From contig CBDCXV010000009.1 in the NCBI GenBank assembly GCA_965223905.1, positions 768,001 to 832,000 on the forward strand: 64,000 bases of DNA. The letters are read 5' to 3'. Under the pieces are notes generated by a model that was not told the origin of the DNA, did no database searches, and saw nothing but the letters and a program-made list of their open reading frames with translations. This document shows positions 49,076 to 64,000 of this stretch, in pieces. This stretch comes from Candidatus Latescibacterota bacterium (lineage in GTDB: Bacteria; Latescibacterota; UBA2968; UBA8231). The stretch's first letter is position 1. The number at the start of each line of letters is the position of its first letter. Both the position numbers and the translations under genes were made by a program.

Positions 49076-49189
49076 TGCCTGCGCGCGCAGTCTCGCGTGA
49101 ATTCGTTCGCCGATGCATCCCGCCTCGCTGCGTTGCGCTCTGTCGGTGGGTCCCCTACCCACCTCCGCACCCTGAAGCGTCGACTCGAC

Positions 49190-49468: not shown

Positions 49469-49507
49469 TCTTCAAGCTCCTTTTACTCGGTAACAGGGAG
49501 GAAGACC

Positions 49508-49915: not shown

Positions 49916-50139
49916 CGCCTGGCCTCAAACGTGTATCTATATTCCCAAAAGAAAGCCACGCGCAAAAGAAAGCCACGCGATGCCACCTCCCGCGAAAGAA
50001 AGAAGATGTGAAGTGAAGCTCCGCTCCTTGCTGCTCCCGCTGGCCCTGGCGGCCGCCCAAGGGTAGTCGAAACCTGTGTCGGGCCTTGGTTGGAGCGAAA
50101 AACCAGGGAAAGGCGAAACAGAGCCGGGGGAATCGATCG

Positions 50140-51540
50140 ATGGATGGGAAAACAACCGCGGTGAGCTCGGCGGATGTAACTGTTCTGTGGGCGGTCGAAG
50201 CGGAACTTCACGGGAATCTCAAACCGACATCCGAGGAAGACGAAACTCAGGGCGAGCGGCCGCACCTGTGGACAGAGGGCTGGGAGAGAGTGGCCGACTA
50301 CCACAGCTGGAAGATCGAGGTCGCCGAGGCGCAGGATTTCCTCGTGTCGATGACCTGCTCCCGCGCCGGCGAGCCCGGCAGCATCGAAGTTGAAGTAATC
50401 GCGGAAGAGAGAAGCATCCCTCTGGCCGTCGCCCCCACACGGGGCTGGATACCGGAGTGGGGGGATGAATGGAGCAGCTTCGGCAAGGTCGACTTCGAAG
50501 GCAGGCTGCAACTGGACGCGGGCGTCGGCTCGATCGAGTTGCGCGCGAAGGAGGAGTCCGGGTCGGAGATCCTCCGCCTGTACACGCTCGAGCTGACTCC
50601 GGTGAGCGCCCTCGGTCGTCTGACCGCGGCAGCGGCGCGGGCCCGGCGCTTGCGTGCCGGCACCGACTGGTTCGTCGAAGCCCGCTACGGAGCGACCTTT
50701 CACTGGACTCCCCTCACTCAACCGCGACACGGCGCACGCAAACCGTTCTCGCAGGCTGTCAGCGATTTCGACGTCGAGAGCTTCGCCGGGATGGTGGAAG
50801 AGACCGGCGCGGGCTACGTCATCTTCACGTCGACTCACGCACCGCACTATTTCCCGGCGCCGATCCAGGCGATAGAGCGGCTCCTCCCCGGAAACACCTG
50901 CGAACGCGATCTCATCGGCGATCTGTCCCGGGCGCTGTGCCGGCGCGGGCTGCCGCTGATCCTCTACTATCCCGGCGGCAGAAGCACGGATGATACGGAC
51001 GAGATCCCGTGGGGGCAGGCGTCGGGATGGACCGGGGACAGGGAGCGGTACCACCGCAATTTCTGCGACATCCTCGCCGAGATCGGGCAGCGCTACGGCC
51101 GTGGGATCGCCGGCTTCTGGTTCGACTTCTGTCCCTTCAACGTCTCGCACCGTTTCGAGCCGCTGTACGCGGCAGCCAGGACCGGCCATTCCGGCCGCAT
51201 CATCGCCTGGAACAGCTGGATCAATCGCAAGCCGAGCGATTTTCAGGATTTCTGGGCGGGAGAGATCGGGGAGTTCCTGGCCCTTCCCGGCCCCGAGCAC
51301 TACGGTGAACTGCAGCCCCACGTCTGGTTCTTCCTCGACGATGAATGGACTCACGAAGAACCCGACACCGAGATTCCCCGGCCGCTCTACGACACCCCCG
51401 CATTGATCGACCACCTGAAGAGGGCGGTCGAGCGACGCATCCCGGTGTCCATGAACGTGGGAATCTATCAGGACGGCAGCGTGTCCGAGGCGACTCTGGA
51501 GCAGTTGCGCGCGGTCAAGGCCTCCATCAGAGCCGGCTGA
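50140..51540 (+). CDS. Alpha-L-fucosidase-like (GH29) enzyme with an N-terminal CBM-like domain
   Basis: WFVEARYGATFHW, GAGYVIFTSTH, RDLIGDL, GFWFD nucleophile motif. Confidence 0.85.
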   Translation: MDGKTTAVSSADVTVLWAVEAELHGNLKPTSEEDETQGERPHLWTEGWERVADYHSWKIEVAEAQDFLVSMTCSRAGEPGSIEVEVIAEERSIPLAVAPTRGWIPEWGDEWSSFGKVDFEGRLQLDAGVGSIELRAKEESGSEILRLYTLELTPVSALGRLTAAAARARRLRAGTDWFVEARYGATFHWTPLTQPRHGARKPFSQAVSDFDVESFAGMVEETGAGYVIFTSTHAPHYFPAPIQAIERLLPGNTCERDLIGDLSRALCRRGLPLILYYPGGRSTDDTDEIPWGQASGWTGDRERYHRNFCDILAEIGQRYGRGIAGFWFDFCPFNVSHRFEPLYAAARTGHSGRIIAWNSWINRKPSDFQDFWAGEIGEFLALPGPEHYGELQPHVWFFLDDEWTHEEPDTEIPRPLYDTPALIDHLKRAVERRIPVSMNVGIYQDGSVSEATLEQLRAVKASIRAG

Positions 51541-51770
51541 GCCGCCCGCCGTCAGGTCTGCCACCCCAGGTTCCGCGTCGCCGGGACGCGGGGTTTCGTT
51601 TATTTGTGCCGAAGAACATCGGAGGCGGAGCCATTGGCCGGGGAACCACTTTGTCTGCAAATCGGATTGGGATTGAAAGGAACCGGCGTTCGGGAGCTTT
51701 TCCCGACACCGGCGTCGAGGTTCAGTAACCGGCGGACGTAACGTCCACTGCTCTTGGCAGGAGGTTTTTT

Positions 51771-52643
51771 ATGCGATTATCGCTGGTCGTGATGCTGGCA
51801 CTCGGCTGCACCGCCGGGGCTGGGGGAGATGCCGATGCGGAAGCGGGACGGTCCGGTTGGTATTTCAGCGGCGCATCCGGTCTTGTCCTGAGCTCGGGGA
51901 TGGACCAATCCGGTTGGAATCGTGACACGGTGTGCTATCCCACGGACCCCTGTTTCGATGCCGACCCCGTCCCGGAGCTTTCCGGTTACCGCTGGGGCTA
52001 CGACATCGACGCGGATGCCGGCGCCGGGTTCGCATTCGCCCTGGGCCGCGGCATCGGCCGCCAGCGCCTCGAGGTTTCGTTCTCGCAGAGCAGGAACGAC
52101 ATCGACCAGGAATTCGCCTCTCTCGAGTATTTCGACGGCAGCCCCTGGATCGGACGGGAAGGAACGGTTGGGTCCAACGACGTGGCTTCCATCGGATCCG
52201 TCACTACCCGGATCCTGGCGCTCAACGTGTACCGGGACCTGGCCGCGACCCATCGTCTGACCACGTACGTCGGCGCCGGACTGGGCGCGGCCTTCGTCGA
52301 GGTCAGCGACCTGCAGTACTCAAACGACTACGAGGACACCGCGGAGTCGCCGCCTGTGTACGACCCGCCGCTGTCGTTCTACAACAGCATCCAGGATGTC
52401 GATCTATCCGACACGGTGCCGGCCGCCCGCCTGCACGCCGGGGCCGATTACGAGGTGAACGACCGGATGCTGCTCGGCGCCAAGCTGACCTGGTCCCTGC
52501 TCGGCGAGATTTCAGACACGGCGGTCTATTCCAGCCATCCGATGCAACAGGAGGGAGATCCTCCCTTCACCAACCAGACCAGTTTCGACGCGGCAGGTGG
52601 TTGGTCGCTGGCCCTCACGATCAAGCATCGGTTCGGCGGTTGA
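51771..52643 (+). CDS. Outer-membrane beta-barrel protein (OmpA/Msp2-like)
   Basis: AGGAGG RBS, signal peptide, LNVYRD, YVGAGLG, AGADY, terminal HRF. Confidence 0.8.
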   Translation: MRLSLVVMLALGCTAGAGGDADAEAGRSGWYFSGASGLVLSSGMDQSGWNRDTVCYPTDPCFDADPVPELSGYRWGYDIDADAGAGFAFALGRGIGRQRLEVSFSQSRNDIDQEFASLEYFDGSPWIGREGTVGSNDVASIGSVTTRILALNVYRDLAATHRLTTYVGAGLGAAFVEVSDLQYSNDYEDTAESPPVYDPPLSFYNSIQDVDLSDTVPAARLHAGADYEVNDRMLLGAKLTWSLLGEISDTAVYSSHPMQQEGDPPFTNQTSFDAAGGWSLALTIKHRFGG

Positions 52644-52764
52644 GAGGTCTTCAGGGGACGGGACACCCCGGAGCATGACCCGTGCATGATCAGTGACCGG
52701 TGGTTGCGGAGGTTTCGAACGGGGCCGGCAGAAACGAGCGGTTAGAAGGCAACCCGCAGGAAGG

Positions 52765-53190
52765 TCAGCCGCGCCAACCTTGGGCTGAAGCCCTGACGTA
52801 CAGGTGCCGGCCTATGGCTCCCAGTGCTGCGTCCAGCTGATCCATTCGCGAGTTGTGCTGGACATCCAACACCCGGTCCACCTGCGGCCGGTGCCAGCCG
52901 AGGCGGCGCGCCAGCTCTGCCTTGCCGATGCCCTGCTCGCGCATCCCCTGGTAGAGCATCACCTTGATGGCGGTGAGGGTCGGCAGCACGGCGATTTCCG
53001 GTCCTTGAGAAGGTGCAGGAATATCCCGACCGTCGTGGATACGGGCAGCTATCGCCTCTTCCAGCGCATCGACAGCCCGTGCCAGCGCTTCGTCTCGGTC
53101 CATCCCAAACGTGGTGAGTTCGGGGAAATCCGGTGACGTTGCCAACAGGGTGCCGTCGTCCTCTTCGAGCAGAATGAGATAGGTCAGCAT
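52765..53190 (-). CDS. hicB: HicB antitoxin with C-terminal HTH
   Basis: SPDFPELTTFG...EAL..A.DALEEAI and KAELARRLGWH.PQVDRVLD. Confidence 0.9.
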   Translation of the reverse strand: MLTYLILLEEDDGTLLATSPDFPELTTFGMDRDEALARAVDALEEAIAARIHDGRDIPAPSQGPEIAVLPTLTAIKVMLYQGMREQGIGKAELARRLGWHRPQVDRVLDVQHNSRMDQLDAALGAIGRHLYVRASAQGWRG

Positions 53191-53330
53191 CAGTTCAACC
53201 CCAGGTCTTTCTTGATTTCGGCCACCAGCCCTCGGCCCAGTTCCTTGCTGCCGCCGTGCATGGGCAACTGAGTCGTGCGGTCACCGAGTCGGACTGTGAT
53301 ATGTCCACCACCGCCTTTGTGTGGGTCTAT
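53190..53330 (-). pseudogene. hicA: HicA toxin lacking its N-terminal helix
   Basis: HKGGGGHITVRLGDRTTQLPMHGGSKELGRGLVAEIKKDLGLN*. Stop overlaps the hicB ATG; in-frame TGA upstream and no start codon. Confidence 0.8.
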
Positions 53331-53359
53331 CCGGGTTTTTCAACGCCGAATCGGGACAA

Positions 53360-53506
53360 TGCCTGCCAGGAGGGTTTACAGACGACGCTGGGGTTGTTAT
53401 TGGGCTTGTCAAACTGGTAGATAGCCATATTACCCCAGAGATCCAAGAAAAAGCAGAAAAAAGGCTGAGAGAATTTTTCCCGGACGAAGGTCCTCCACAA
53501 GCATAG
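53360..53506 (+). pseudogene. C-terminal fragment resembling YkvA/DUF1232
   Basis: LPGGFTDDAGVV...HITPEIQEKAEKRLREFF. Confidence 0.5.
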
Positions 53507-53519
53507 AGAAAGGGAAACG

Positions 53520-53756
53520 ATGACACCACAAGAAGAACAGGAACTATTTGCCCGAATAGATGCCATTGAAGCGGTCTTAAATTCTGTCTCCTGGATGATT
53601 TTGAAAAGTCTAAACCCACAAGATACAAAGAGAGCATTTGCAGATATGTGCAATGAACTTAGAAAAGCACTGTCAGATCCCACATTCGGAGCACGGCAAA
53701 AAAGAGCAATAGAAAAGCAAATATCTATGCTTGAAAAACTGGGTGATTCTCTTTAG
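53520..53756 (+). CDS. AT-rich hypothetical protein, 78 aa
   Basis: AAAGGG RBS; helical composition; terminator downstream. Confidence 0.55.
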   Translation: MTPQEEQELFARIDAIEAVLNSVSWMILKSLNPQDTKRAFADMCNELRKALSDPTFGARQKRAIEKQISMLEKLGDSL

Positions 53757-53846
53757 AAGTCTCTTTGATGTATTCATTCAAAAAAAACCTAACGGCATTG
53801 ATTAAATCTTTTCTCTGAAAGCCGAAAGATTTATAGTCTTCCTCGC

Positions 53847-53876
53847 CCCCGGTTCCTTGTGAATCGGGGTTTTTTT
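53847..53876 (+). terminator. Rho-independent terminator
   Basis: CCCCGGTTC-cttgt-GAATCGGGG followed by T7. Confidence 0.8.
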
Positions 53877-53912
53877 GTTGTTCCATTTCATACTCCTTGA
53901 AAGGGGGTTAAA

Positions 53913-54026
53913 ATGTTGTATAAGTCCATCATTACAACCATCGGCGTTCTGATTTTCAGAGAGGCCGGGATCTACGTCTGCCGAAAGGCATCGGAAAGGC
54001 TGTATACGGAGAGGCTATTAGTTTAA
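53913..54026 (+). CDS. Candidate 37-aa small protein MLYKSIITTIGVLIFREAGIYVCRKASERLYTERLLV
   Basis: GAAAGGGGG RBS 5 nt upstream; below the ORF-track size cutoff. Confidence 0.35.
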   Translation: MLYKSIITTIGVLIFREAGIYVCRKASERLYTERLLV

Positions 54027-54715
54027 AGAATCATTCTTCTGCAACTCCGTATCCCCCCCCTTGATCCACCTGAGTAAATCGGCGATCTGCTACGGCTCAC
54101 AGTGCTGTAGCCTGCAACTGCTGAAACCGGCAGGTTTCGGGCAAACAGCGCAAAACAGGCCGATTGTAGCGGGGTTTATAGTTACCATCTTGATCGCGCC
54201 GCCGGCTTCGGGGGCGCGGTGCGGTCGCTGTCCCGGATATGGGGCGCCGGAGCCCCGGGGCAGCGAAGGCGATGGCGCCGCCGGCTTCTCCAGTGGTTCC
54301 GGGCGGCCGCAGAAGATGGCCGGTCCCATGCGGCCGTTAAGCTACAGCCTTGTGCGTCTGTGCTTCCGGATCTTGTAATTCTTCTCTATCGAGATTGCCG
54401 TTACAACAAGACGTGCGGTAACGGTACGAGGCGATACTATTGAAATGCTCGGCGGCGTCTTGCTGTTTGACGCGGGGCTTCTCCCCTTCCAATGACAGAC
54501 GCAGGGCCGCGGGGGTTTTCCTCGTCAGCCTTGCTCTTCTCGAGCCCGTCGAGGAGGGGCTGCCGGGTTTCGCGGACCGCCTCCGGCCAGGTGCGACGCC
54601 GCCCCCTTGGCCCTGGTTGCCGCTGTTCCTCCCGGCCGGGCTTTCTGCCTGTCCGCGGGCTGCGGATCCCCGCTGAGATCCGACCGCACGGCCCCTTTCC
54701 AGTCTTGCCCTTTTG

Positions 54716-54869
54716 TGTCGCAAATTGAGACAGGCGTCGCATATCGCGACACATGGCCCTCACTGCCGCCCCTGGGTTTATATAACCCGTTTATAAACAG
54801 TTGGTTGAACAGTTGACCCCCCTTCAGGCGACCCCCGGGGCAGGCGCAGAAGTGTTTCAAAATGCGACA
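54716..54869. promoter_or_regulatory. Three 17-bp palindromic boxes, candidate sigma54 enhancer (bEBP) sites
   Basis: TGTCGCAAATTGAGACA (54716), CGTCGCATATCGCGACA (54735), TGTTTCAAAATGCGACA (54853). Confidence 0.65.
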
Positions 54870-54948
54870 CTCGCCCTCTTTTTCCTCGCTTCACTCCATA
54901 TGGGTTAACCCCTTTATATGCAAGTAGTTAGCTCCATTTCTTCCACGA

Positions 54949-54964
54949 TGGCACAGTCTTTGCA
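54949..54964 (+). promoter_or_regulatory. Sigma54 (-24/-12) promoter
   Basis: TGGCAC-AGTCT-TTGCA with exact GG-N10-GC spacing, upstream of the giant ORF. Confidence 0.8.
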
Positions 54965-55035
54965 TACATCCACAGGATCCGAACGCGCAGGCACCCGGTG
55001 CGTTCCTGCCGGGGCTTCGGCAATCCCGGTCCTGC

Positions 55036-58000
55036 ATGCGGCCGACCTTGCGACTGGAGAACCCCATCGATACTTCCCGCATCCTTGCCGCCCGTCGCTC
55101 CTGGGCCTCTTTCCCGGGTGCCGGCGGTTTCGGATGGCTGCTGGCGGTGCTCGGCTGTCTCGCGGCACCGGGGTCAGGCGCCGCCGCCGCCGCCGGGGCC
55201 GAGCCGCTGCTGGAGGGTCGGGTGCTTCTGTCTTCGGGCGCCCCGGCGGCCGGGGTGCGGGTGCGGCTGTTCGCCGAGCTGGGGCGTTCGCTGGGCGCCA
55301 CCGCGGATGAGAGCGGCTATTTCGCGCTGCCGCTGAACGCCCTGCGCAAGGCCGCGCCCCTTCCGGCGCGCCTGCGCCTGGGTCAGAACTACCCCAACCC
55401 GTTCAACCCCTCGACGATCATCCCGTATCAGCTGCCGGCCCCGGCGCGGGTGCGCCTGGAGGTGTTCAACATCCTGGGTCAGCGGGTGGCCACCCTGGTG
55501 GACGGGGCGCGGCCGGCCGGTTTTCACACGGCGACCTGGAACGGGACCGATGCCTCGGGGCGAGGCGTGGGCTCGGGGGTGTATCTGTACCGGCTTCTTG
55601 GGGGCGGGGAGCGCCTGACGCGGTCGATGGTGCTGCTGGACGGACCGGTGGTCCCGGCGGGTGGAGGGGGCTCCGGCGGGGCGGGGGATCCCTGGAGTGG
55701 AGGAGCCGACGGGGCGGGGGCACCCGCTGCAGGGACCGGCGCGGAGGCGGATGCAGGGAGCTTCGGCGGGGCCGACTCCTGGAGCGGGGCGGCAGGCACG
55801 GCGGGACACGCTGCGGAAAGCGAAGCGGATCCTTGGGGTGGGGCGGTGGGCTCGGCGGATGGGTTCGTTTCTGCGGGTCACCCTCCGGGGAGCGCCGCGG
55901 GTGGAGCGGTCTCCGGGGGTGCGGCCGATCCATCAGACAAGCCCGCAGGAGCAGGAGGTACCGGTCCGGAGAAGTGGGCTCCGGCCGGCGGAGCCGCCTC
56001 CGGGGGGGCGAGTGCAGCGGGTCCGACAGGCGGGATGGGAGCGAGGGCTTCGGCCCGCGGCGACGGGCGGGTCTACGGGCTGACGGTCTCGGGTCCGGGG
56101 CTGGTCCCCTGGGTCGACCCGGCCTTCCGGGTGGGAGCAGGACCGGTCGAGATTCAGGTTCAGCCGCTGTCATCCCGGCCTCGGGGCAAGGTGGCCGCAG
56201 GCGGCCTGCTGGGGGACGTCGACGGCAACGGCCGGGTCGATCTCGCCGACGCCCTGCTGGTCGCCTCGTACAGCGAGGACCCGACCCTGTCCCTGCCCAC
56301 CGGCGACATTTCTCTCGGCGACGTCAACGGGGACGGGCAGGTCAACCTGGCCGACGCCCGGCTCATCGAGGCCTACCACGCCGACCCGTCCGACCCGTCG
56401 CTGCCGGAAGGGATCGGCGCCCCGGTGGCCGCGGCGGATGCGCCGATGCTCTACTGGACGGACGCGGGCAGCGACCGGATTCAGCGGGCCCGCCTGGACG
56501 GCTCCGGGGTCGAGGACGTCGTCGACAGCGGCCTGGTCAACCCGCGCGGCCTGGCGGTGGACTCAGCGGCCGGCAAGCTCTACTGGAGCGACTACGGCAG
56601 CGACCGGATTCAGCGGTCCAACCTCGACGGCTCCGATATCGAGGACTTGGTGACCGCGGGCCTGCAGATCCCCCTGGCCCTGGCTCTGGACGCGGCCGGC
56701 GGCAAGCTCTACTGGACGGACAACGGCACCGACCGGATTCAACGGGCCAACCTCGACGGAACCGAAATCGAGGATCTCGTCACCGGCCTGCGGACCCCGT
56801 TGGGCCTGGCCCTCGACGCGGCCGCCGGCAAGCTCTACTGGACCGACAGCGGCGCCGACCGCATCCAGCGCGCTGAGCTCGACGGCAGCGAAATCGAAGA
56901 TCTGGTGACCGAGGGCCTGCAGATCCCCCGGGGGCTGGCCCTGGATACGGCCGGCGGCAAGCTCTACTGGGCCGACAGCGGCACAGATCGCATTCAACGC
57001 GCCAACCTCGACGGCACGGAAATCGAGGACCTGGTCACCACCGGTTTGGGCACGCCCCGGGGCCTGGCCCTCGACGTTTCTGCGGGCAAGCTCTACTGGG
57101 CCGACAGCAGCACCGACCGCATCCAGCGGTCCAACCTCGACGGCTCTGAAATCGAAGACCTGGTGACCGAGGGCTTGCTGAGCCCCCGGGGCCTGGCCCT
57201 TGCCCGGACTTTGTCCACGGACAACCAGGCCCCTGCCCTGGAGCCGCTGGCGGACCGCACCGCGGCAACCGGCGACTCGCTGACCCTCGAGCTTGCCGGC
57301 AGCGACCCGGACGGAGACGCCCTGACCTACACCGCTTCCTCCGGCGACGAAGCGGTGGCCACGGCGGAAGCCGCCGACTCCCTGGTGACTCTACGGCTGC
57401 TGGCCGTCGGCGAGACCGCCGTCACCGTGACCGCCCGCGACCCGGGGGGCCTGCAGGCAACCCGAACCTTCACCGTCACCGTGCAGGCCTCCAACGAGCC
57501 CCCGCTCGCCGTGCCCTGGCTCTACTGGAGCGACGCGCGCACCGACCGCATCCAGCGCGCTGAGCTCGACGGCAGCGACATTCGCACCCTGGTCGGCGGC
57601 CTCGGACAGCCCCGGGACCTCGCCCTCGACCGGGACGGCGGCCGCATGTACTGGACCGACAGCGGCGCCGACAAGATCCAGCGCGCCCACCTCGACGGGT
57701 CGCGGGTCGAAGACCTGGTGACCGAGGGGTTGAAGGAGCCGTTCGGCCTCGCCCTCGATAAGGCCGGGGGCAAGATCTACTGGAGCGACTGGGGCACCGA
57801 CAAGATCCAGCGGTCCAACCTCGACGGCTCCGAAATCGAAGACCTCGTCGCCACCGGTCTGAACGAACCCTACGGCCTGGCCCTCGACCTGGAGGAAGGC
57901 AAGATCTACTGGACCGACTGGGGGGCGGACAAAATCCAACGGGCAAACCTCGACGGCTCCGAAGTCGAGGACCTGGTCACCGGCCTCAACCAGCCCCGGG

Positions 58001-61000
58001 GGATCGCCCTCGATCTGGAGGAGGGCCGCATGTACTGGCCCGACTGGGGCACGGACAAGATCCAGCGGGCGAATCTCGACGGCTCCGGTGTGGAAGACCT
58101 GGTCACCGAGGGCCTGAAGACCTCCCAGGCGATCGCCCTCGACCTGGAGGAGGGCCGCATGTACTGGACCGACTACGGCACCGACAAGATCCAGCGGGCC
58201 CACCTCGACGGCAGCCAGGTCGAAGACCTGGTCACTTCCGGCCTGAAGGAGCCCTACGGCCTGACCCTGGGCGCCGGCCTGCCGGCGCAGATCCTGAAAG
58301 TAGAGGGCGACGCGGCGACCCTGAACCTGGCCGGCCGTTTCCGCGACCCGGAGGGAGGCCCCCTGACCCTCACCGCCACTTCCAGCGACGAGGCGGTCGC
58401 CGCCGCGACTCTGGCCGACTCGGTGCTGACCATCGCCCCGGTCGCCCCCGGACAGGTGACCGTCGCGGTCACCGCCCGCGACCAAGGGGGCCGGCACACC
58501 ACTCTGCCGGTCCCGGTGACCGTGTATCCGGCCAACCGTCCCCCGGTGGCCCGGACCCTGGCCGACCGCAGGATCCGCATCGACCGGCCTGCCCGGGTCG
58601 ATCTGACAAGCGCCTTCACCGACCCGGACGAAACAGACGTGCTGACCTACACGGCCGCCTCGAGCAACGAGGCGGTGGCCACCGCAGCCGTCGAGGGGGT
58701 CGGGGTGCTGATCACCCCCAAGACCACCGGGCAGATGACCATCGCGGTGACCGCCCGCGACCCGGAGGGATTGGAGGCGAGCTTGAGCTTCAGAGTCACC
58801 GTCGAGCCCAAGCCGCCCCCCAAGCCGCCGCCCAGGCCTCCGTCGGACTCCAGCAGCAGCAACGACAGTGGCGGAGGAGGGGGTCCTGTAACCCCTCCGC
58901 GACCGCCGCCACCACCACCACCGCCGCCGCCGCCGCCCCCAGGTCCGAACAACGCCCCCACCTTCGACGAGGGCCCGGCCGCCACCCGCAGCGTCGCCGA
59001 AAACACCGGGGCGAACCGGAACATCCAGCACCCGGTCCGCGCCACCGACGACGGACACCGCCTGACCTACCGGCTCTCCGGCACTGACGAGGCCCGCTTC
59101 GCCGTCGTCTCCGGCAGCGGGCAGCTGCGCACCCGGTCCGGGGTCACCTACGACTTCGAAGCCAAGGACCGCTACGAGGTGACGGTGGAAGTCGACGACC
59201 CCTACGGCGGAACCGACGCCATCGACGTGACCGTGCACGTGGCCGACATCGACGAACCTCCCCAGGCCCCGGGCAGGCCTCAGGTCGACCCGGCTTCATC
59301 CACCAGCCTGACGGTAACCTGGACCGAGCCGGCCAACACCGGCCCCGACGTCCACGACTACGACGTGCAGTACCGCAAGAGCGGCAGCTTCCTCCCCTGG
59401 CCGCACACCGGCCCCGGCACCGCCGCCACGATCCCGGACCTGGAGGTCAACACCCGTTACGAGGTGCAGGTGCGGGCGCACAACGACGAAGGCGAGAGCT
59501 CCTGGTCCGCCTCCGGCTTCGGGACGACCAGCGCCAACCAGCGGCCGGTATTCGACGAATCCGCTCCGACGCGCAGCCTCGACGAGAACACCACCGGAAC
59601 ACAAGACATCGGCGCCCCGGTGAGGGCGACCGATCCGGAGAACACGGCGCTGACCTACCGCCTCTCCGGACGGGACGCGAGCTCCTTCACCCTCGACGAG
59701 AACAACGGCCAGCTGCGCACCCGCCCCGGCGTCGCCTACGACTTCGAAACCCGGAGTCGCTACTCGGTTACGGTGGAGGCAACCGACGAGCCGGGCGGCG
59801 GAACGACCGTCACCGTGACCATCGAACTGATCGACGACGACAACGAGCGGCCGGACCGGCCCGACCGGCCCACGGTGACAGCCTCGACGCTGAACAGTCT
59901 ATCCATTCGCTGGACCGCCCCGGCCAACACCGGTCCCGACATCCACGACTACGACGTGCAGTACAGCGAAGACGGCGGCACCTTCGGCGACTGGCCGCAC
60001 ACCGGACCGGGCACGAGCACGACGATCACCAGCCTGACCGCGGACACGCGCTACCAGGTGCAGGTGCTCGCGCGTAGCCCGGAAGGCGAGAGCCTCTGGT
60101 CCCAATCAGTTGAAGTGAGAACCGTCGCCAACCAGGCGCCCACGTTCAGCGAAGGATCGCGCACCTCGCGCAGTCTGGACGAGAACACCGCCGGGACGAA
60201 CGACATCGGCAACCCGGTGACCGCCACCGACAACGACGGAGGGACGCTGGACTACCGGCTCGCCGGCACCGACGCGGCCCACTTCGACCTCGACGCGAAC
60301 GACGGACAGCTCGAGACCCGATCAGGCGAGACCTACGACTTCGAGGAGAAGGCCCGCTACGAGGTGACGGTGCGCGTCGAGGACGGCCAGGGCGGCAGCA
60401 ACACCATCGAGGTGACGATCAATCTGAGAGACGAAACCGAACCGCCCGAGGACCCGGCAGCACCCAGCGTCTCGGCGGCCTCCTCGACCAGCCTGACGGT
60501 GACCTGGGCGGAGCCGGCCACTACCGGCCCCGACATCAGCGACTACGACGTGCAGTACCGCGAAGGGGACAGCGGCAGCTTTTCTTCCTGGTCCCACAAC
60601 AGCGCCGAGCGTACCGCCACCATCACCAGCCTGACCCCGGACACCGACTACCAGGTGCAGGTGCTGGCCCGCAACGCCGAAGGAGCCAGCGACTGGTCCT
60701 CCTCCGGCACGGGAAGCACCGACCCCAATCAGCTGCCGGTGTTCACCGACGGGTCGAGCGCCACCCGCCGCCTCGACGAGAACACCACCGGCGTTGAGGA
60801 CGTCGGCGATCTGGTCGGCGCTACCGACCCGGAGAACACCCCCCTGACCTACAGCCTCGAAGGCACGGATGCGGATGCCTTCGCCATTGACACACGCAGC
60901 GGCCAGTTGAGGACCGACGGGGACGAGACCTACGACTACGAGACGAAGCCCCGCTATGTTCTGAGGGTCAAAGCGACCGACGGGCATGGCCGCGATCGCA

Positions 61001-64000
61001 CCATCCCCGTGTTAATAAGCCTGAACGACCTCAACGAGGCTCCGGAGTTCATCAGCGACGCGGCCTTCGAGGCGGCGGAGAACCAGACCTTTGCCGGCCT
61101 GGTGGAAGCCGAGGACCTCGATGGCGCCGACCGCGTCACGAACTACACCCTCACCGGCGGGGCCGACCAGGACCGGTTCGAGATCAACAGCGCAGGGGTG
61201 CTGGCCTTCAAGGATGACCCCGACTTCGAGAAACCCGCGGATTCCGGGAGGAACAACACATACAATGTGGCGGTCACGGCCACCGGCGGCTCGGGAGGCC
61301 GCGCCCTGACCGCGGAACAAGCGATCACCGTCACCGTCACCGACGAGAACGAGCCGCCGGCTTTCACCAGCGACGATGCCTTCACGGTCAAGGAAAACGA
61401 GCGCTTCGCCGGCCGGGTTGCTGCCGGGGACGTCGATAGAGACGATGCCATCACCGGCTACGAGGTAACCGGCGGGGCCGACGGGAGCCGGTTCGAGATC
61501 GCCAATACCCACGAGTTGCGCTTCAAGGAGGATCCCGACTTCGAGCGGCCGGCGGATGCGGGAGGAAGCAACGAATACAGCGTGGTGGTAGAGGCCACCG
61601 GCGGCACCGGGATCCGGGAGCTGACCGCGACGCAGACGGTCACCGTCATCGTGGAGGATGTAGACGAGCCGCCGGGCAAGCCGGAGCCGCCGACCATAGC
61701 TGCCAGGAAGCGGAACAGTTTGACCGTGCGCTGGACGGCACCCGCCAACACCGGGCCGGACATTGCGGACTACGGGGGGCAATACGGAATAGCCGGCAGC
61801 GGTACCGTCGAGGGCGGCTGGGACCGCGTCGGCACGGCCACGGAGGCGACGGTCGACAATCTGTCTGCGGACACGGCCTACGAAATACAGGTGCGGGCGA
61901 CGAGTGCGGAAGGGAAGAGCGGCTGGTCGGAACCGGCGGAGGGACGGACCGAAGAGAACCGGGTTCCGGTTTTCGGCGAGGGGCCGAGCACGAGGCGCGA
62001 GCTCGCGGAGAACACGGCCGCCCATGTGAACGTCGGCCTGCCGGTGACGGCAACCGACGCCGACGCCGACAGGCTCATCTACAGCTTGGAACGCCCGGCA
62101 GAGAGCCCGTTCACCATCGATTCACCTAGCGGTCAACTCAAGACGAGAGACGGTGTGGCATACAATCACGAGGAGCAGTCCGAGCATGCGGTAACGGCGC
62201 GCGTGGAGGACGGCCATGGCGGCAGTGCGACGATTGTCGTGACCGTTGCCATTCTGGATGTCGAGAACTCCGCAATAACCGCGGATGCCGGATGGGACCT
62301 GACGGTGGCGGCCGGCGGAACCGGCTATCTGGACGGCACGGGCTCGAGCACCGAGGAAGGTGAGTTGAGCTGGTCCTGGTCGCTGCTCTCCTGGCCGGGA
62401 GACGACCCGCCGGCGCTGGACGACCCGGCCAGCCCGACCCCGTCGTTCGCCGCGGCCGCCGAGGGGACCTACGCCGTTCGGCTCGCGGTCAGCAACGGCA
62501 GCCAGAGCGCCAGCGACGAGGTGCTGGTCACGGTACGGCCATCGGCGGAGGCCGGCCTGCTGGTCACGGCCGACCTGTTGGCGGACACCAACCGGGACGG
62601 CCGGGTGGATCCGTCCGACGAGCCCGGCGAGAACACCTCGACCGAGGCTTCCGGAGCCCTGTTCGGTCTCAATGCGGATGATGATGACGGGGATGGGGTT
62701 CAGGACGGGTGGGACGATCGGGCGAACGGCGATGCGGACCTCCTGGACACGGCGCCCGTGGTGGTGAGGCGGATCTCCGGGCTGCACAGAAACCACTCCG
62801 TCGTGCTGGAAATGGCCTACCAGTCGGTGTTGCAGGACGAATTTGCCTGGACGTCCGTCGGCCCGCAATTGTTCTACCAACGGGCGGACGGCGACGTCGA
62901 GCTGTTGATTGCCGGCGGCGACCTGCGGGCGGAGCTACCGATCGATCAACTGGTTGCCGGCGACCTGCGCCTGTACATCGAGAGCCGGTTCGGACGACAC
63001 TTGCACTTCGATGGAAAGCTCTCGCTCACGCTGACCGTCCGGGACGGTGGATCCGCGATATCGCAGGACAGGGTCGTCCTGCGGGCGAGTCCGATCCTGT
63101 TCTCGCATCATCTGCAGCCCGCCGAGCGGGTGTTCGTGGTGGGAATCCCCGCCTGGGATTCTCTCTCCAACACGGCGCTCCTCGACGCCCTGGAGGCCCA
63201 TCTGCCCGCGTCGACCGAACTGTACCGGCTCGATTCCTCGACATACGATAACGACCGCTGGATTCAGGATTCCATGGAGACCGGCTATGTGCAGCGGCCT
63301 TCCGCCGCCGGAGTGGAGACGGCGGCGGTTCACACGCAGATGCTTCGCGGTCGCGGCCTCCATCGCTTCCTGCCGGAAGAGTATCTGAGCGCGGAAGTGG
63401 GCTATGTGTACCCCAGCGGCGTATCCGGCACCAGCTTCAACTACGGCGGCAACGTGGAGGTCATTCCACCGTATACACACAACGGCAGAACCTGGTCTTT
63501 CGGGCGCCTGGTGATCGGCGACAATCCAACCCGCCGGGACTGGGCAATGGACCGCTGGCAGTTTGCCTTCTTCGAGTCACAAGGTGTGCAGGGGCCGCCG
63601 ATCGAGGTAGACACGAGCTGGCTCACGGTCTCCCATGTCGATGAGCTGTTCTCGGCGCTTCCCAACCACAATGCGGCGCCGGGAGAGAGACCCTGGGTCA
63701 TCGCCATCGCCTCGCCCGCGCTGGCCGTCGAGTTGCTCGAGGAGGCAGTGGAGCAAGGCTACGGCGACGCGCCCGTATTCGAGGGCCGCGGGTCTGATGA
63801 AACCACGGCACAGGAGATGCTGGCCGACCGCCGCCTCATGGCCGCAAACGACGACGCACAGCGGCGGATCGACACCGTGCGGGAGCGATTGATGACGGAG
63901 GCGGGCCTTGCGGACAGCGACTTCCGGGAAGTGCCGGCCCTGTTCTACGAGTTTTTCCACAATGAACTGTCTTATGGAATGCTGGCTCTGGTTCCCAGCA
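55036..64000 (+). CDS. Giant surface protein (about 2,990 aa or more, incomplete): signal peptide, FlgD-like, G/A linker, dockerin, two six-bladed YWTD propellers, Ig-like, poly-Pro, cadherin/FN3 array, PKD-like and protein-arginine deiminase (PAD) domains
   Basis: Frame +1 appears open from the TAG at 54925 to the window end, and the track lists no frame +1 ORF there. Motifs: NYPNPFNPST; GDVDGNG and GDVNGDG; 12 YW(T/S/A/P)D repeats; DRWIQD (63253-63270); GGNVEVIPP; WLTVSHVDE (His at 63634). Start uncertain: ATG 55036, or near 55066 behind GGAGA. Confidence 0.88.
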   Translation, partial: MRPTLRLENPIDTSRILAARRSWASFPGAGGFGWLLAVLGCLAAPGSGAAAAAGAEPLLEGRVLLSSGAPAAGVRVRLFAELGRSLGATADESGYFALPLNALRKAAPLPARLRLGQNYPNPFNPSTIIPYQLPAPARVRLEVFNILGQRVATLVDGARPAGFHTATWNGTDASGRGVGSGVYLYRLLGGGERLTRSMVLLDGPVVPAGGGGSGGAGDPWSGGADGAGAPAAGTGAEADAGSFGGADSWSGAAGTAGHAAESEADPWGGAVGSADGFVSAGHPPGSAAGGAVSGGAADPSDKPAGAGGTGPEKWAPAGGAASGGASAAGPTGGMGARASARGDGRVYGLTVSGPGLVPWVDPAFRVGAGPVEIQVQPLSSRPRGKVAAGGLLGDVDGNGRVDLADALLVASYSEDPTLSLPTGDISLGDVNGDGQVNLADARLIEAYHADPSDPSLPEGIGAPVAAADAPMLYWTDAGSDRIQRARLDGSGVEDVVDSGLVNPRGLAVDSAAGKLYWSDYGSDRIQRSNLDGSDIEDLVTAGLQIPLALALDAAGGKLYWTDNGTDRIQRANLDGTEIEDLVTGLRTPLGLALDAAAGKLYWTDSGADRIQRAELDGSEIEDLVTEGLQIPRGLALDTAGGKLYWADSGTDRIQRANLDGTEIEDLVTTGLGTPRGLALDVSAGKLYWADSSTDRIQRSNLDGSEIEDLVTEGLLSPRGLALARTLSTDNQAPALEPLADRTAATGDSLTLELAGSDPDGDALTYTASSGDEAVATAEAADSLVTLRLLAVGETAVTVTARDPGGLQATRTFTVTVQASNEPPLAVPWLYWSDARTDRIQRAELDGSDIRTLVGGLGQPRDLALDRDGGRMYWTDSGADKIQRAHLDGSRVEDLVTEGLKEPFGLALDKAGGKIYWSDWGTDKIQRSNLDGSEIEDLVATGLNEPYGLALDLEEGKIYWTDWGADKIQRANLDGSEVEDLVTGLNQPRGIALDLEEGRMYWPDWGTDKIQRANLDGSGVEDLVTEGLKTSQAIALDLEEGRMYWTDYGTDKIQRAHLDGSQVEDLVTSGLKEPYGLTLGAGLPAQILKVEGDAATLNLAGRFRDPEGGPLTLTATSSDEAVAAATLADSVLTIAPVAPGQVTVAVTARDQGGRHTTLPVPVTVYPANRPPVARTLADRRIRIDRPARVDLTSAFTDPDETDVLTYTAASSNEAVATAAVEGVGVLITPKTTGQMTIAVTARDPEGLEASLSFRVTVEPKPPPKPPPRPPSDSSSSNDSGGGGGPVTPPRPPPPPPPPPPPPPGPNNAPTFDEGPAATRSVAENTGANRNIQHPVRATDDGHRLTYRLSGTDEARFAVVSGSGQLRTRSGVTYDFEAKDRYEVTVEVDDPYGGTDAIDVTVHVADIDEPPQAPGRPQVDPASSTSLTVTWTEPANTGPDVHDYDVQYRKSGSFLPWPHTGPGTAATIPDLEVNTRYEVQVRAHNDEGESSWSASGFGTTSANQRPVFDESAPTRSLDENTTGTQDIGAPVRATDPENTALTYRLSGRDASSFTLDENNGQLRTRPGVAYDFETRSRYSVTVEATDEPGGGTTVTVTIELIDDDNERPDRPDRPTVTASTLNSLSIRWTAPANTGPDIHDYDVQYSEDGGTFGDWPHTGPGTSTTITSLTADTRYQVQVLARSPEGESLWSQSVEVRTVANQAPTFSEGSRTSRSLDENTAGTNDIGNPVTATDNDGGTLDYRLAGTDAAHFDLDANDGQLETRSGETYDFEEKARYEVTVRVEDGQGGSNTIEVTINLRDETEPPEDPAAPSVSAASSTSLTVTWAEPATTGPDISDYDVQYREGDSGSFSSWSHNSAERTATITSLTPDTDYQVQVLARNAEGASDWSSSGTGSTDPNQLPVFTDGSSATRRLDENTTGVEDVGDLVGATDPENTPLTYSLEGTDADAFAIDTRSGQLRTDGDETYDYETKPRYVLRVKATDGHGRDRTIPVLISLNDLNEAPEFISDAAFEAAENQTFAGLVEAEDLDGADRVTNYTLTGGADQDRFEINSAGVLAFKDDPDFEKPADSGRNNTYNVAVTATGGSGGRALTAEQAITVTVTDENEPPAFTSDDAFTVKENERFAGRVAAGDVDRDDAITGYEVTGGADGSRFEIANTHELRFKEDPDFERPADAGGSNEYSVVVEATGGTGIRELTATQTVTVIVEDVDEPPGKPEPPTIAARKRNSLTVRWTAPANTGPDIADYGGQYGIAGSGTVEGGWDRVGTATEATVDNLSADTAYEIQVRATSAEGKSGWSEPAEGRTEENRVPVFGEGPSTRRELAENTAAHVNVGLPVTATDADADRLIYSLERPAESPFTIDSPSGQLKTRDGVAYNHEEQSEHAVTARVEDGHGGSATIVVTVAILDVENSAITADAGWDLTVAAGGTGYLDGTGSSTEEGELSWSWSLLSWPGDDPPALDDPASPTPSFAAAAEGTYAVRLAVSNGSQSASDEVLVTVRPSAEAGLLVTADLLADTNRDGRVDPSDEPGENTSTEASGALFGLNADDDDGDGVQDGWDDRANGDADLLDTAPVVVRRISGLHRNHSVVLEMAYQSVLQDEFAWTSVGPQLFYQRADGDVELLIAGGDLRAELPIDQLVAGDLRLYIESRFGRHLHFDGKLSLTLTVRDGGSAISQDRVVLRASPILFSHHLQPAERVFVVGIPAWDSLSNTALLDALEAHLPASTELYRLDSSTYDNDRWIQDSMETGYVQRPSAAGVETAAVHTQMLRGRGLHRFLPEEYLSAEVGYVYPSGVSGTSFNYGGNVEVIPPYTHNGRTWSFGRLVIGDNPTRRDWAMDRWQFAFFESQGVQGPPIEVDTSWLTVSHVDELFSALPNHNAAPGERPWVIAIASPALAVELLEEAVEQGYGDAPVFEGRGSDETTAQEMLADRRLMAANDDAQRRIDTVRERLMTEAGLADSDFREVPALFYEFFHNELSYGMLALVPS

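What the first reader, a model, noticed from the sequence alone, without database searches (positions are those of the whole stretch)
62560..64000. Mammalian-type protein-arginine deiminase (citrullinating enzyme) at the end of a ~3,000-aa adhesin
Seen: the frame +1 ORF missed by the track ends in ...SPILFSHHLQPAERV...NDRWIQDSMETGY...FNYGGNVEVIPP...FGRLVIG...FFESQGVQGPPIEVDTSWLTVSHVDELFSALP...IASP...LMTEAGLADSDFREVPALF. Known: these blocks occur in the same order in vertebrate PAD1-4 (PF03068: DRWIQD-type, LDSFGNLEVSPP, GRIL.G, WL.VGHVDE, ELGL.E.DIIDIPQLF). Equivalents of PAD4 catalytic Asp350, His471 and Asp473 are present, and an acidic DTNRDG/NADDDDGD Ca-binding-like region precedes them. 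This is not the Porphyromonas PPAD/agmatine deiminase family. Stand-alone PADs occur in some bacteria and fungi. Inference: here the enzyme is carried on a long YWTD/cadherin/FN3 stalk. That suggests contact-dependent citrullination of host matrix, immune proteins or Arg-rich antimicrobial peptides by a symbiont. I know of no description of this architecture.
Basis: partly seen in the sequence, partly recalled or inferred. Interest (0 to 1): 0.9.

Follow-up and report, generated by a model that had tools for sequence, protein, structure and literature searches.

The report
Arginine deiminase on giant bacterial stalk
A bacterium carries a complete, apparently active enzyme of the same family as the human citrullinating enzymes at the tip of a 3,071-residue secreted stalk protein, one of a set of near-identical stalks in this genome that each end in a different enzyme.

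Summary
The open frame at window 55036 runs 251 bases past the window end and encodes 3,071 aa. Its last 563 aa match PF03068 end to end (E 2e-80), align to human PAD1 and PAD4 across both the middle and catalytic domains, and fold like them (TM 0.81-0.83).

It is the bacterial two-domain PAD type. It has no PAD_N, and none of the four calcium-site-2 positions holds the residue PAD4 has there.

New findings:
- About 28 relatives, including Acidobacteriota MAGs, carry the same PAD on a ~980-aa cadherin/FN3/PKD stalk with its own signal peptide.
- No other genome of the window's phylum has a PAD (0 of 167).
- This genome holds at least 7 giant paralogues with the same stalk but other heads: leishmanolysin-like protease, purple acid phosphatase, PPDK_N.
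- The stalk-to-PAD switch lies at residue ~2220, and a second assembly spans it.

Best reading: an extracellular, stalk-displayed citrullinating enzyme whose head was acquired horizontally. The target is unknown. This is a new variant of a known kind.

The parts
55036..64000 (+). Single ORF of 3,071 aa. It continues 251 nt beyond the window to a TGA at window-equivalent 64249-64251.
   Evidence: GC3 is 0.71-0.93 along the whole frame. The start Met and first 200 aa are 85-93% identical in 5 paralogues that align from residue 1.
55036..55200 (+). N-terminal signal peptide (aa 1-~55: RR, hydrophobic FGWLLAVLGCLAAP, then AGA|EP). Cys41 lies inside it.
   Evidence: Read from the translation and conserved in paralogues. 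No signal-peptide predictor was available, so this is an inference.
55210..55623 (+). CarboxypepD_reg-like piece (aa 59-100) and a T9SS type-A sorting / FlgD_ig-like domain (aa 119-196), unusually placed at the N-terminus.
   Evidence: PF13620 E 8.2e-5 and PF13860 E 4e-9. TIGR04183 scores 30.5 bits against a cut-off of 23.
55633..56160 (+). Gly/Ala/Ser-rich low-complexity linker (aa ~200-375). Paralogues have only ~8-47 aa here.
56209..56373 (+). Dockerin type I domain (aa 392-446).
   Evidence: PF00404 E 1.2e-11.
56443..58290 (+). Two YWTD (LDL-receptor class B) beta-propellers (aa ~470-720 and ~830-1085) separated by a PKD/Big_9 domain (aa 730-816).
   Evidence: PF00058 E 5.3e-103 with 12 stretches, plus PKD.
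58372..58815 (+). Big_2/Big_9 Ig-like domains (aa 1113-1260).
58948..61695 (+). Repeated cadherin-FN3 modules (aa 1305-2220). This is the part of the stalk shared with giant paralogues of the same genome (65-92% identity).
   Evidence: The same-genus genome G002 has an 83%-identical stretch ending at residue ~2221.
61663..61725 (+). Recombination breakpoint (aa ~2210-2230). Upstream, 40-residue windows are 27-39 of 40 identical to paralogue C2:125216. Downstream, identity to paralogues is ~25% and identity to the ~980-aa stalked PAD proteins is 60-75%.
   Evidence: Sliding identity. P0083 from another assembly is at least 31 of 40 identical in every window across the breakpoint.
61678..62535 (+). 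FN3 (aa 2215-2303), cadherin (aa 2325-2406) and K319L-like PKD (aa 2418-2500). This short stalk travels with the PAD in all close relatives.
62563..63057 (+). PAD middle (Ig-like) domain, aa 2510-2674, with the acidic cluster N2546, D2548, D2550, D2557, D2560, D2568, D2571 (equivalents of PAD4 Ca sites 3-5).
   Evidence: The phmmer alignment reaches PAD4 chain residue 118 and PAD1 residue 140. These positions are conserved in 26-28 of 28 clade rows. The AF2 model shows a beta-sandwich. PF08527 itself did not score on this protein.
63058..64000 (+). PAD catalytic domain, aa 2675-3062 (ends at window-equivalent 64221). It holds D2745, R2771/R2773, H2867 and D2869; Cys3048 lies at 64177-64179, beyond the window.
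   Evidence: PF03068 E 2e-80. Alignments to PAD1 and PAD4. Foldseek TMq 0.81-0.83. Tetrad counts.

Best explanation
The end of the window encodes the catalytic head of a 3,071-aa secreted modular protein. The head is a complete two-domain (PAD_M + PAD_C) protein-arginine deiminase of family PF03068, with every catalytic residue intact.

The protein reads, in order: signal peptide; an Ig-like N-terminal cassette; dockerin; two YWTD propellers; about ten cadherin, FN3 and other Ig-like modules; a PKD domain; and the PAD.

The first ~2,220 residues are a stalk that this genome, and a genome of the same genus, use repeatedly. At least seven paralogous giants carry other C-terminal heads. The last ~850 residues (FN3-cadherin-PKD-PAD) come from a clade of ~980-aa secreted 'stalked PADs' otherwise seen in Acidobacteriota and unnamed MAGs. 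They were joined to the resident stalk by recombination within homologous cadherin/FN3 modules.

Inferred mechanism. The protein is exported by Sec, and how it stays at the surface is unknown. The stalk holds the enzyme tens of nanometres from the cell. The acidic Ca sites 1 and 3-5 are filled by external calcium. The Cys3048 thiolate, with His2867, Asp2745 and Asp2869, then hydrolyses the guanidinium group of peptidyl-arginine to citrulline plus ammonia on extracellular proteins or peptides.

Shown here: identity, completeness, fold, conserved residues, architecture, paralogue family, patchy distribution. Inferred: secretion, activity, calcium dependence, substrate class.
For: Identity and completeness:
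- PF03068 at 271 bits, covering the full profile.
- phmmer to PAD1 at 2.9e-57 and PAD4 at 2.2e-53, covering PAD_M and PAD_C.
- AF2 model with pLDDT 86.2; the top 50 listed Foldseek hits are all PAD1-4 or PADI6 chains, TMq up to 0.83.
- The tetrad D-H-D-C is present here, in 27 of 28 clade rows and in 109 of 110 other bacterial rows.
- W347, R372 and R374 equivalents are present.
- The only cysteines in 3,071 aa are Cys41, in the signal peptide, and the catalytic Cys3048, as expected of an exported enzyme.

Single gene:
- No stop across 9.2 kb, coding GC3 throughout.
- P0083, from another assembly, is 95.5% identical over residues 1818-3071 and spans the breakpoint.

Exported:
- The signal peptide is conserved in paralogues.
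- The ~980-aa relatives start with their own signal peptides.
- The genome has PorU and ~99 CTD-bearing cargo ORFs.

Modular heads:
- Paralogues share the stalk and end in LRR + Peptidase_M8 (4 loci), GSDH + Metallophos (1) or PPDK_N (2).

Horizontal origin:
- PF03068 occurs in 1 of 41 relatives and 1 of 168 genomes of the phylum, in both cases only this genome.
- The nearest named PADs are Ca. Multivorans and Holophagales (Acidobacteriota), at 56-64% identity.
- Synteny with same-genus genome G002 ends at window 53221.
- GC3 is 0.87 in the stalk and 0.81 in the PAD cassette.

Activity precedent:
- Bacterial PF03068 PADs are active in Streptomyces (passages of 10.1101/2020.07.16.207027).
Against: - No expression or activity data exist; no RNA holder was listed.
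- The four Ca-site-2 positions, which the PMC8826395 passages link to the mammalian calcium switch, do not hold the PAD4 residues. Regulation may therefore differ, or the enzyme may be calcium-independent.
- PF08527 (PAD_M) does not score on this protein by itself.
- There is no C-terminal T9SS sorting domain and no recognised anchor, so 'displayed on the cell' is unproven. The protein could be released.
- The short public contigs break at 61653-61679, just at the paralogue-shared region. They do not bridge the stalk/PAD junction independently.
- The stalk is 65-92% identical to paralogues, a situation in which assemblies can mis-join.
- The host, and even host association, are not established.
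Confidence: 0.7

Rival explanations
1. Assembly chimera. The true gene is a ~980-1,260-aa stalked PAD like its relatives, and the assembler joined it to the 5' part of one of the near-identical giant stalk genes.
For: The genome holds at least 7 paralogues 65-92% identical over the cadherin/FN3 stalk. Public short contigs end at 61653-61679, exactly where the sequence becomes paralogue-shared. Most relatives are 950-1,040 aa with their own signal peptide. The nearest database protein, P0083, is called at only 1,263 aa.
Against: P0083 comes from a different assembly (95.5% identical, so not the same sequence). It continues 400 aa upstream of the breakpoint and starts in the middle of an FN3 domain, so it is a truncated call of a longer gene. 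Across residues 1900-2220 P0083 matches our protein in 31-40 of 40 positions per window, against 27-39 of 40 for the best in-genome paralogue, and it is the better match in 14 of those 16 windows. The junction falls at a domain boundary and is in frame. The genome is in 11 contigs of up to 2.2 Mb. No signal peptide or start lies near residue 2100-2220.
Confidence: 0.08
2. The PAD head is a nutritional or matrix-processing exoenzyme, not a host-manipulation device. Together with the sister giants (metalloprotease, acid phosphatase, dehydrogenase heads) it works on extracellular organic matter. It releases ammonia from arginine-rich proteins or makes them easier to degrade.
For: Sister proteins on the same stalk carry degradative heads: Peptidase_M8, and Pur_ac_phosph_N + Metallophos. 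The reaction releases NH3 (established PAD chemistry). A neighbouring gene has a weak alpha-L-fucosidase match. Other bacteria fuse PAD to subtilase, amine oxidase or a carbohydrate-binding module.
Against: One ammonia per arginine is a poor yield for a 3,071-aa protein. YWTD, cadherin, FN3 and LRR modules are binding modules typical of animal extracellular proteins. Nothing in the sequence distinguishes this reading from host targeting.
Confidence: 0.25
3. The substrate is bacterial: the cell's own surface proteins, a secreted ribosomal peptide (as with citrulassin in Streptomyces), or proteins of neighbouring bacteria.
For: The one functional assignment for a bacterial PF03068 PAD that I read passages of is modification of a lasso peptide encoded elsewhere in the genome (10.1101/2020.07.16.207027, passages).
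Against: That enzyme is a stand-alone ~600-aa protein in a different branch of the tree (rows P0051 and P0053), and I saw no export signal described for it. Here the enzyme follows a signal peptide and a ~2,500-aa extracellular-type stalk. No RiPP genes were seen among the neighbours scanned.
Confidence: 0.15
4. The domain is a non-catalytic binding or scaffold module, like mammalian PADI6.
For: A dead copy exists in the clade: P0085 has Arg for the catalytic His and Ser for the Cys. Ca site 2 is absent.
Against: In this protein the tetrad, W347, R372, R374, Ca site 1 and Ca sites 3-5 are all intact. The lone mature cysteine is the nucleophile.
Confidence: 0.05

Closest known systems
Human PAD1-PAD4 (PF03068; PDB 5hp5, 1wd8, 8r8u and others)
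   Same: Same family and fold (TMq 0.81-0.83, 27-30% identity). Same catalytic Asp/His/Asp/Cys, W347, R372 and R374, Ca site 1 and the acidic Ca3-5 cluster of the middle domain.
   Different: No PAD_N domain; a PKD domain precedes PAD_M. The Ca-site-2 residues are replaced. The Ca4/switch Asp388 is Glu. The protein is exported and fused to a 2,500-aa stalk. It has one cysteine only.
Bacterial two-domain PF03068 PADs (Streptomyces albulus citrulassin PAD; actinobacterial and proteobacterial PADs of Cummings et al. 2021 and Harris et al. 2020)
   Same: PAD_M + PAD_C without PAD_N, and loss of Ca site 2. Both are described in passages of PMC8826395. Catalytic and many Ca residues are retained (passages of 10.1101/2020.07.16.207027).
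   Different: Those are mostly stand-alone ~570-700-aa proteins and lie in other branches of the tree. The passages I read mention no stalk, and the words 'signal peptide' and 'secreted' do not occur in the PMC8826395 main text.
Unpublished ~740-1,480-aa 'stalked PADs' in MAGs (Ca. Multivorans sp., Holophagales bacterium, many unnamed; P0004-P0021, P0084-P0092)
   Same: 47-69% identical over the 563-aa PAD part (98% for P0083) and the same FN3-cadherin-K319L_PKD-PAD order. One starred clade of 28 rows holds them all.
   Different: They have their own signal peptide directly before the first cadherin. They lack YWTD propellers, dockerin and the N-terminal cassette. Those with a named record title are in another phylum.
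Porphyromonas gingivalis PPAD (PF04371)
   Same: A bacterial, exported, cell-surface citrullinating enzyme that acts on host proteins, in an organism with a type IX secretion system (recalled knowledge, plus passages).
   Different: It is an unrelated branch of the guanidino-modifying superfamily, calcium-independent and with a C-terminal sorting domain (recalled). Here the family is PF03068 and there is no C-terminal sorting domain.
Other PAD fusions: OmpA + PG_binding + PAD (Aulosira, Heteroscytonema, an Acidobacteriota MAG); Peptidase_S8 + PG_binding + Amino_oxidase + PAD (Actinoplanes aureus); CBM96 + PAD (Pseudoteredinibacter isoporae)
   Same: PAD_M + PAD_C as the C-terminal module of a long multidomain protein.
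   Different: Different N-terminal modules, different tree branches, and at most 2,862 aa among the best 150 representatives.

Membership tests
Protein-arginine deiminase, PF03068 (PAD/PADI) | Profile match above Pfam's gathering score over the whole catalytic domain | tested here: met
   271.2 bits against a cut-off of 25, profile positions 2-394 of 395. The genome-wide search gives the same single locus.
Protein-arginine deiminase, PF03068 (PAD/PADI) | Catalytic Cys645 with Asp350, His471 and Asp473 (PAD4 numbering) | tested here: met
   D2745, H2867, D2869 and C3048, read from the printed alignments and the completed ORF. The tetrad is D-H-D-C in 27 of 28 clade rows.
Protein-arginine deiminase, PF03068 (PAD/PADI) | Substrate-contacting Trp347, Arg372 and Arg374 | tested here: met
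   W2742, R2771 and R2773. That these residues contact substrate is recalled from the PAD4 literature.
Protein-arginine deiminase, PF03068 (PAD/PADI) | Pentein (alpha/beta-propeller) catalytic fold plus Ig-like middle domain | tested here: met
   AF2 model with pLDDT 86.2 and pTM 0.87. Foldseek gives PADI4 8r8u_A at E 3.5e-49 with 574 aligned columns and TMq 0.81, and PAD1 at TMq 0.83.
Protein-arginine deiminase, PF03068 (PAD/PADI) | Deiminase activity on peptidyl-arginine | not testable with these tools
   Needs expression and a citrulline assay.
Three-domain animal/late-cyanobacterial PADI type (Cummings et al.) | PAD_N domain (PF08526) | tested here: not met
   PF08526 is not among the listed hits. 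The position is occupied by a K319L-like PKD domain.
Three-domain animal/late-cyanobacterial PADI type (Cummings et al.) | Calcium site 2 (E351, D369, S370, N373 in PAD4 numbering) | tested here: not met
   The residues are S, Q, M and G here. At these four columns only 4 cells among the 28 clade rows are acidic (3 Glu at the D369 column, 1 Asp at the N373 column). Site membership of the residues is recalled; the paper's passage says sites 2 and 4 are exclusive to that clade.
Two-domain bacterial/fungal PADI type | PAD_M + PAD_C only, with Ca sites 1, 3 and 5 kept | tested here: met
   The alignment to PAD4 starts at chain residue 118. Q349, E353 and E411 are conserved, as are N153, D155, D157, D165, D168, D176 and D179. 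PF08527 itself scores only in relatives, for example L012 at 25.0 bits, not in this protein.
Porphyromonas-type PPAD / agmatine deiminase (PF04371) | PF04371 profile match | tested here: not met
   Only PF03068 is reported for the C-terminal 563 aa at E up to 1.
Type IX secretion cargo | Type-A sorting domain at the extreme C-terminus | tested here: not met
   The protein ends with the PAD domain. A TIGR04183-like domain lies at aa 119-196 instead. 99 other ORFs of the genome have it one residue before the stop.

The most novel reading that the evidence does not exclude
The bacterium runs a modular 'enzyme-on-a-stalk' system. One long stalk built of domain types typical of animal extracellular proteins (YWTD propellers, cadherin, FN3) has an N-terminal T9SS-type domain and takes interchangeable C-terminal catalytic heads: PAD, leishmanolysin-like protease, purple acid phosphatase and others. 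The PAD head is a cassette passed horizontally between unrelated co-resident lineages. It is used to citrullinate extracellular proteins of an animal host or of competitors. That would be the first extracellular use of the animal-family PAD by a bacterium, and it would work at ambient external calcium instead of an intracellular calcium switch.
Probability: 0.3. Interest if true: 0.8.

Novelty: new variant of a known kind. Interest (0 to 1): 0.6.

Why it matters
PF03068 PADs are best known as intracellular, calcium-gated regulators in animals. The bacterial members studied so far are stand-alone enzymes with one known substrate, a lasso peptide.

This locus, together with the clade of about 28 stalked relatives, shows that bacteria also export this enzyme on adhesin-like stalks and pass the cassette between phyla.

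If active outside the cell, it would be a second, independent route to bacterial citrullination of foreign proteins, after Porphyromonas PPAD. It would also give a natural PAD that lacks the calcium-switch site. The family of identical stalks with swapped heads is a ready-made natural experiment in enzyme display.

Tried and rejected
- Expression: the look-up of sequencing runs listed no RNA holder, so nothing can be said about transcription.

- Read support for the full-length gene: only short Logan contigs were available. They are fragmented over 54.7-61.7 kb because hundreds of related YWTD/cadherin/FN3 contigs pile up. One X1 contig of 4,533 nt covers 61653-64000 and beyond with 1 mismatch, and X3 and X5 cover the PAD part in pieces. 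None bridges the stalk/PAD breakpoint by more than a few dozen bases, except X5 record 29 (61534-62312, 7 mismatches, 3 gaps). I do not count this as confirmation of the junction.

- Same fusion elsewhere: the word-indexed search for 1,643-5,229-aa proteins found 1 (P0082, 1,711 aa, Cadherin-like + Calx-beta + PAD). The 'longer' search found 15 of 987-2,815 aa. The exhaustive representative search found none above 2,862 aa in its best 150. The JGI metagenome scan found 1 distant locus. No YWTD + PAD protein other than this one (and, possibly, the truncated P0083) was seen.

- Lipoprotein reading of Cys41 (LAVLGC): one paralogue has Ser there, so I prefer a type-I signal peptide. Not resolved.

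- Read-through of an intergenic spacer between the N-terminal sorting-like domain and the rest: rejected, because paralogues join the two parts in frame with only ~8-47 aa between them.

- Phylum of the organism: not named. I did not look up exact-sequence clusters, to avoid identifying the record. It is a T9SS-bearing phylum with 168 species genomes held.

- Habitat: a search for 'Candidatus Multivorans' found 0 papers. Host association is suggested only by the fact that the laid runs are filed under coded organism labels and by the domain repertoire.

- Literature: searches found no paper linking PF03068 PADs to sponge or symbiont MAGs. Their sequence lists may contain multidomain PADs.

- Tree: FastTree only. 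Rows covering fewer than 480 of the 563 query residues, including the one mammalian sequence P0047, were left out, so the position relative to animal PADs was not tested.

- My first numbering of the Ca-site-2 columns was off by two. It was corrected.

Full report
THE OBSERVATION

It is the tail of one ORF, 55036..63999, 2,988 aa and open at the window end. The window is G000:C9:768001-832000. On the contig the frame continues for 83 more codons to a TGA, giving 3,071 aa (window-equivalent 55036-64251).

Pfam PF03068 matches the completed C-terminal 563 aa (P0002) at E 2e-80 over profile positions 2-394 of 395. The whole protein also shows 12 YWTD repeats, 7 cadherin, 4 FN3 and 5 Big_9 stretches, plus PKD, K319L-PKD and dockerin.

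WHAT THE HEAD IS

phmmer against PDB sequences gives 27 distinct chains, all PAD1, PAD2, PAD3, PAD4 or PADI6. PAD1 scores 2.9e-57 and PAD4 2.2e-53. The alignments start at PAD1 residue 140 and PAD4 chain residue 118, which is at the beginning of the middle domain.

I counted through the printed PAD4 alignment; the chain is offset +3 from native numbering. The following equivalents result:
- Catalytic tetrad: Asp350 = D2745, His471 = H2867, Asp473 = D2869, Cys645 = C3048.
- Substrate contacts: Trp347, Arg372 and Arg374 are kept.
- Ca site 1: Gln349, Glu353 and Glu411 are kept.
- Middle-domain acidic cluster (Ca sites 3-5): N153, D155, D157, D165, D168, D176 and D179 are all kept.
- Asp388 is Glu.
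- Ca site 2 is replaced: E351 is S, D369 is Q, S370 is M and N373 is G.

The assignment of residues to calcium sites is recalled from the PAD4 and PAD2 structure papers.

An AlphaFold2 model built on a 19-row alignment has mean pLDDT 86.2 and pTM 0.87. Foldseek returns PADI4 and PAD1 first, at E 1e-46 to 1e-49 and TMq 0.81-0.83 with about 575 aligned columns, so both domains align.

There is no PAD_N; a K319L-like PKD domain sits in its place. This is therefore the two-domain type. Passages of Cummings et al. (PMC8826395) describe that type for non-cyanobacterial bacteria and fungi, and state that calcium sites 2 and 4 are exclusive to the animal and late-cyanobacterial clade. It is not the Porphyromonas PF04371 type.

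RELATIVES

Bacterial PF03068 proteins are numerous:
- 1,953 representative clusters at E up to 1e-3, of which 459 are at E up to 1e-30.
- 357 confirmed loci in species-representative genomes.
- 837 were already compiled in 2020 (passages of 10.1101/2020.07.16.207027).

The window's PAD falls in a starred clade of 28 rows (FastTree, 138 rows; rows covering fewer than 480 query residues were dropped, including the one mammalian sequence). In this clade almost every member is 740-1,480 aa with precomputed fn3, Cadherin, Big_9, K319L_PKD and PAD domains. The named members are two Candidatus Multivorans MAGs (Acidobacteriota, Thermoanaerobaculia) and a Holophagales MAG, at 64, 61 and 56% identity.

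Full sequences of several members start with a signal peptide directly before the first cadherin (P0004, P0085, P0088). They align to our residues 2104-3071.

PAD is also fused to other modules elsewhere:
- OmpA + PG_binding (Aulosira, 1,856 aa; Heteroscytonema; an Acidobacteriota MAG).
- Subtilase + PG_binding + amine oxidase (Actinoplanes aureus, 2,067 aa).
- CBM96 (Pseudoteredinibacter isoporae).
- A 2,862-aa protein with no other Pfam hit.

Of the 80 loci kept, 12 have an ORF of 900 aa or more counted from the first start codon. 'PAD at the end of a long protein' is thus recurrent in databases.

THE STALK AND ITS SISTERS

tblastn of segments of the protein against its own genome shows that only the PAD part is unique, with 1 locus. 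The other segments recur in many loci:
- N-terminal 200 aa: 85-93% identical elsewhere.
- Dockerin + YWTD part: 77-95%.
- Cadherin/FN3 part, residues 1305-2305: 65-92%.

Enclosing ORFs reach 4,128, 4,098, 3,562, 2,706, 2,576, 2,493 and 1,775 aa. Their C-terminal 1,300 aa end in different heads:
- An LRR array followed by leishmanolysin-like Peptidase_M8 (four loci).
- GSDH followed by Pur_ac_phosph_N + Metallophos (one locus).
- PPDK_N (two loci).

A 793-aa paralogue with the same N-terminal cassette lies 3.4 kb downstream of the PAD gene, followed by a phage-type integrase.

A sliding comparison places the switch at residue ~2210-2230 (window ~61.66-61.73 kb), at the start of an FN3 domain. 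Upstream of it, 40-residue windows are 27-39 of 40 identical to paralogue C2:125216. Downstream, identity to paralogues is about 25% and identity to the ~980-aa stalked PADs is 60-75%. In the same-genus genome G002 a 4,147-aa ORF matches our residues 1305-2221 at 83%, and the match stops at that same point.

ORIGIN

PF03068 was found in 1 of 41 close relatives and 1 of 168 genomes of the phylum, in each case only G000 itself. The genomes searched are 78-99% complete where listed.

G002 shares the upstream flank at 96% nucleotide identity up to window 53221. It then carries unrelated sequence with a 9,039-aa ORF on the other strand.

GC3 is 0.87-0.88 in the stalk and 0.81 in the PAD cassette. 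The Acidobacteriota PAD genes have GC3 of 0.76-0.83. That shift is modest.

The simplest history is horizontal acquisition of a stalked-PAD gene, followed by recombination with a resident stalk gene inside homologous cadherin/FN3 modules.

IS THE LONG GENE REAL?

For:
- No stop in 9.2 kb, and coding GC3 throughout.
- An in-frame junction at a domain border.
- P0083, from another assembly, is 95.5% identical over residues 1818-3071. It begins mid-FN3, so its gene call is truncated, and it stays at least 31 of 40 identical across the breakpoint.

Against:
- The public short contigs fragment over the stalk and end at 61653-61679, so they give no independent bridge.

I put the chimera rival at about 8%.

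EXPORT AND ANCHORING

The N-terminus has a signal peptide conserved in paralogues. It is followed by a CarboxypepD_reg-like piece and a domain that passes NCBIfam's T9SS type-A sorting model (30.5 bits against a cut-off of 23).

The genome has a full-length PorU (617 bits) and 99 ORFs with this domain one residue before the stop. In 15 ORFs, including ours, the domain is N-terminal. Paralogues join it in frame to the dockerin/YWTD part through only ~8-47 aa, so it is a genuine part of the protein. Its role is unexplained.

The mature protein would have a single cysteine, the nucleophile. It is very acidic, with 15.5% Asp + Glu and 1.2% Lys. Both features fit an extracellular, calcium-loaded protein.

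MECHANISM AND RIVALS

I infer a Sec-exported enzyme held on a long stalk, acting on extracellular peptidyl-arginine. External calcium would fill sites 1 and 3-5, and there would be no site-2 switch.

Which proteins it modifies cannot be read from sequence.

A pseudoenzyme reading is unlikely here. One clade member, P0085, is clearly dead, with tetrad D-R-D-S.

VERDICT

The enzyme family and bacterial membership are already known. The stalked, exported, horizontally mobile form and the swap-head stalk family were not described in the papers I could search. This is a new variant of a known kind, of moderate to high interest, with function still to be shown.

Noticed in passing
window 55390-55623, and 14 other ORFs of G000 (e.g. 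C11:64150-63551, C10:100048-99443, C9:835611-836222): A T9SS type-A sorting (CTD-like) domain sits just after the signal peptide at the N-terminus of 15 ORFs. 99 ORFs of the same genome carry it one residue before the stop, and the genome has a full-length PorU. An N-terminal position for this domain is unexplained.
   Followed up: partly
G000 C2:125216-137599, C2:179633-191926, C9:907655-915382, C9:489282-497399, C10:21619-32304, C11:56777-64255, C2:173017-178341: These are giant paralogues (1,775-4,128 aa) with the same YWTD/cadherin/FN3 stalk but other C-terminal heads: LRR + leishmanolysin-like Peptidase_M8, GSDH + purple acid phosphatase, and PPDK_N. C9:487231-490590 and C9:489282-497399 overlap in different frames, so that copy may be frameshifted.
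   Followed up: partly
P0085 (989 aa) and P0004 (980 aa), both on one 7,787,359-nt contig of another genome: Two stalked-PAD paralogues occur in one genome. P0085 has Arg for the catalytic His and Ser for the catalytic Cys, so it is a naturally dead copy beside a live one.
   Followed up: partly
window 52765-54000: A 141-aa ORF on the minus strand (52765..53190) looks to me like a HicB-type antitoxin; it was not scanned. It is followed by a 500-nt segment of only 40.6% GC (53500-53999) in a 64.6% GC window. Synteny with same-genus genome G002 ends at 53221.
   Followed up: partly
L110/L111 (G002:C1:3886000-3925999): Where G000 has the PAD giant, G002 has a 9,039-aa ORF on the opposite strand with no similarity to the stalk at E 1e-10.
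   Followed up: no
L090:6124-7290 (window-equivalent 70124-71290) and L090:3611-5989: A tyrosine recombinase (Arm-DNA-bind_3, Phage_int_M, Phage_integrase) lies 6 kb downstream of the PAD gene, just after a 793-aa paralogue of the stalk's N-terminal part. No tRNA was found in L090 or in window 45000-64000.
   Followed up: partly
window ~22430-31626 (C9 ORF ending at 799626): A second giant ORF in the window (3,065 aa stop to stop) ends in a C-terminal T9SS sorting domain. Similar CTD-ending giants lie directly upstream of two stalk paralogues (C9:486061-486375, C10:33482-33168).
   Followed up: no
L031, L034, L029, L038, L040 (Aulosira, Heteroscytonema, an unnamed MAG, an Acidobacteriota MAG, a Desulfuromonadales MAG): This is a separate class of 1,265-1,856-aa PAD fusions. 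They share a conserved N-terminus beginning MARPMLGDLELQ, and the two scanned (L031, L029) have OmpA and PG_binding_1 domains before PAD_M + PAD. The class is spread over four phyla.
   Followed up: partly
window 41493-42680: A 396-aa ORF matches only the C-terminal third of AcrB/AcrD/AcrF (profile 665-1019 of 1021). It may be a gene fragment or a mis-picked start.
   Followed up: no
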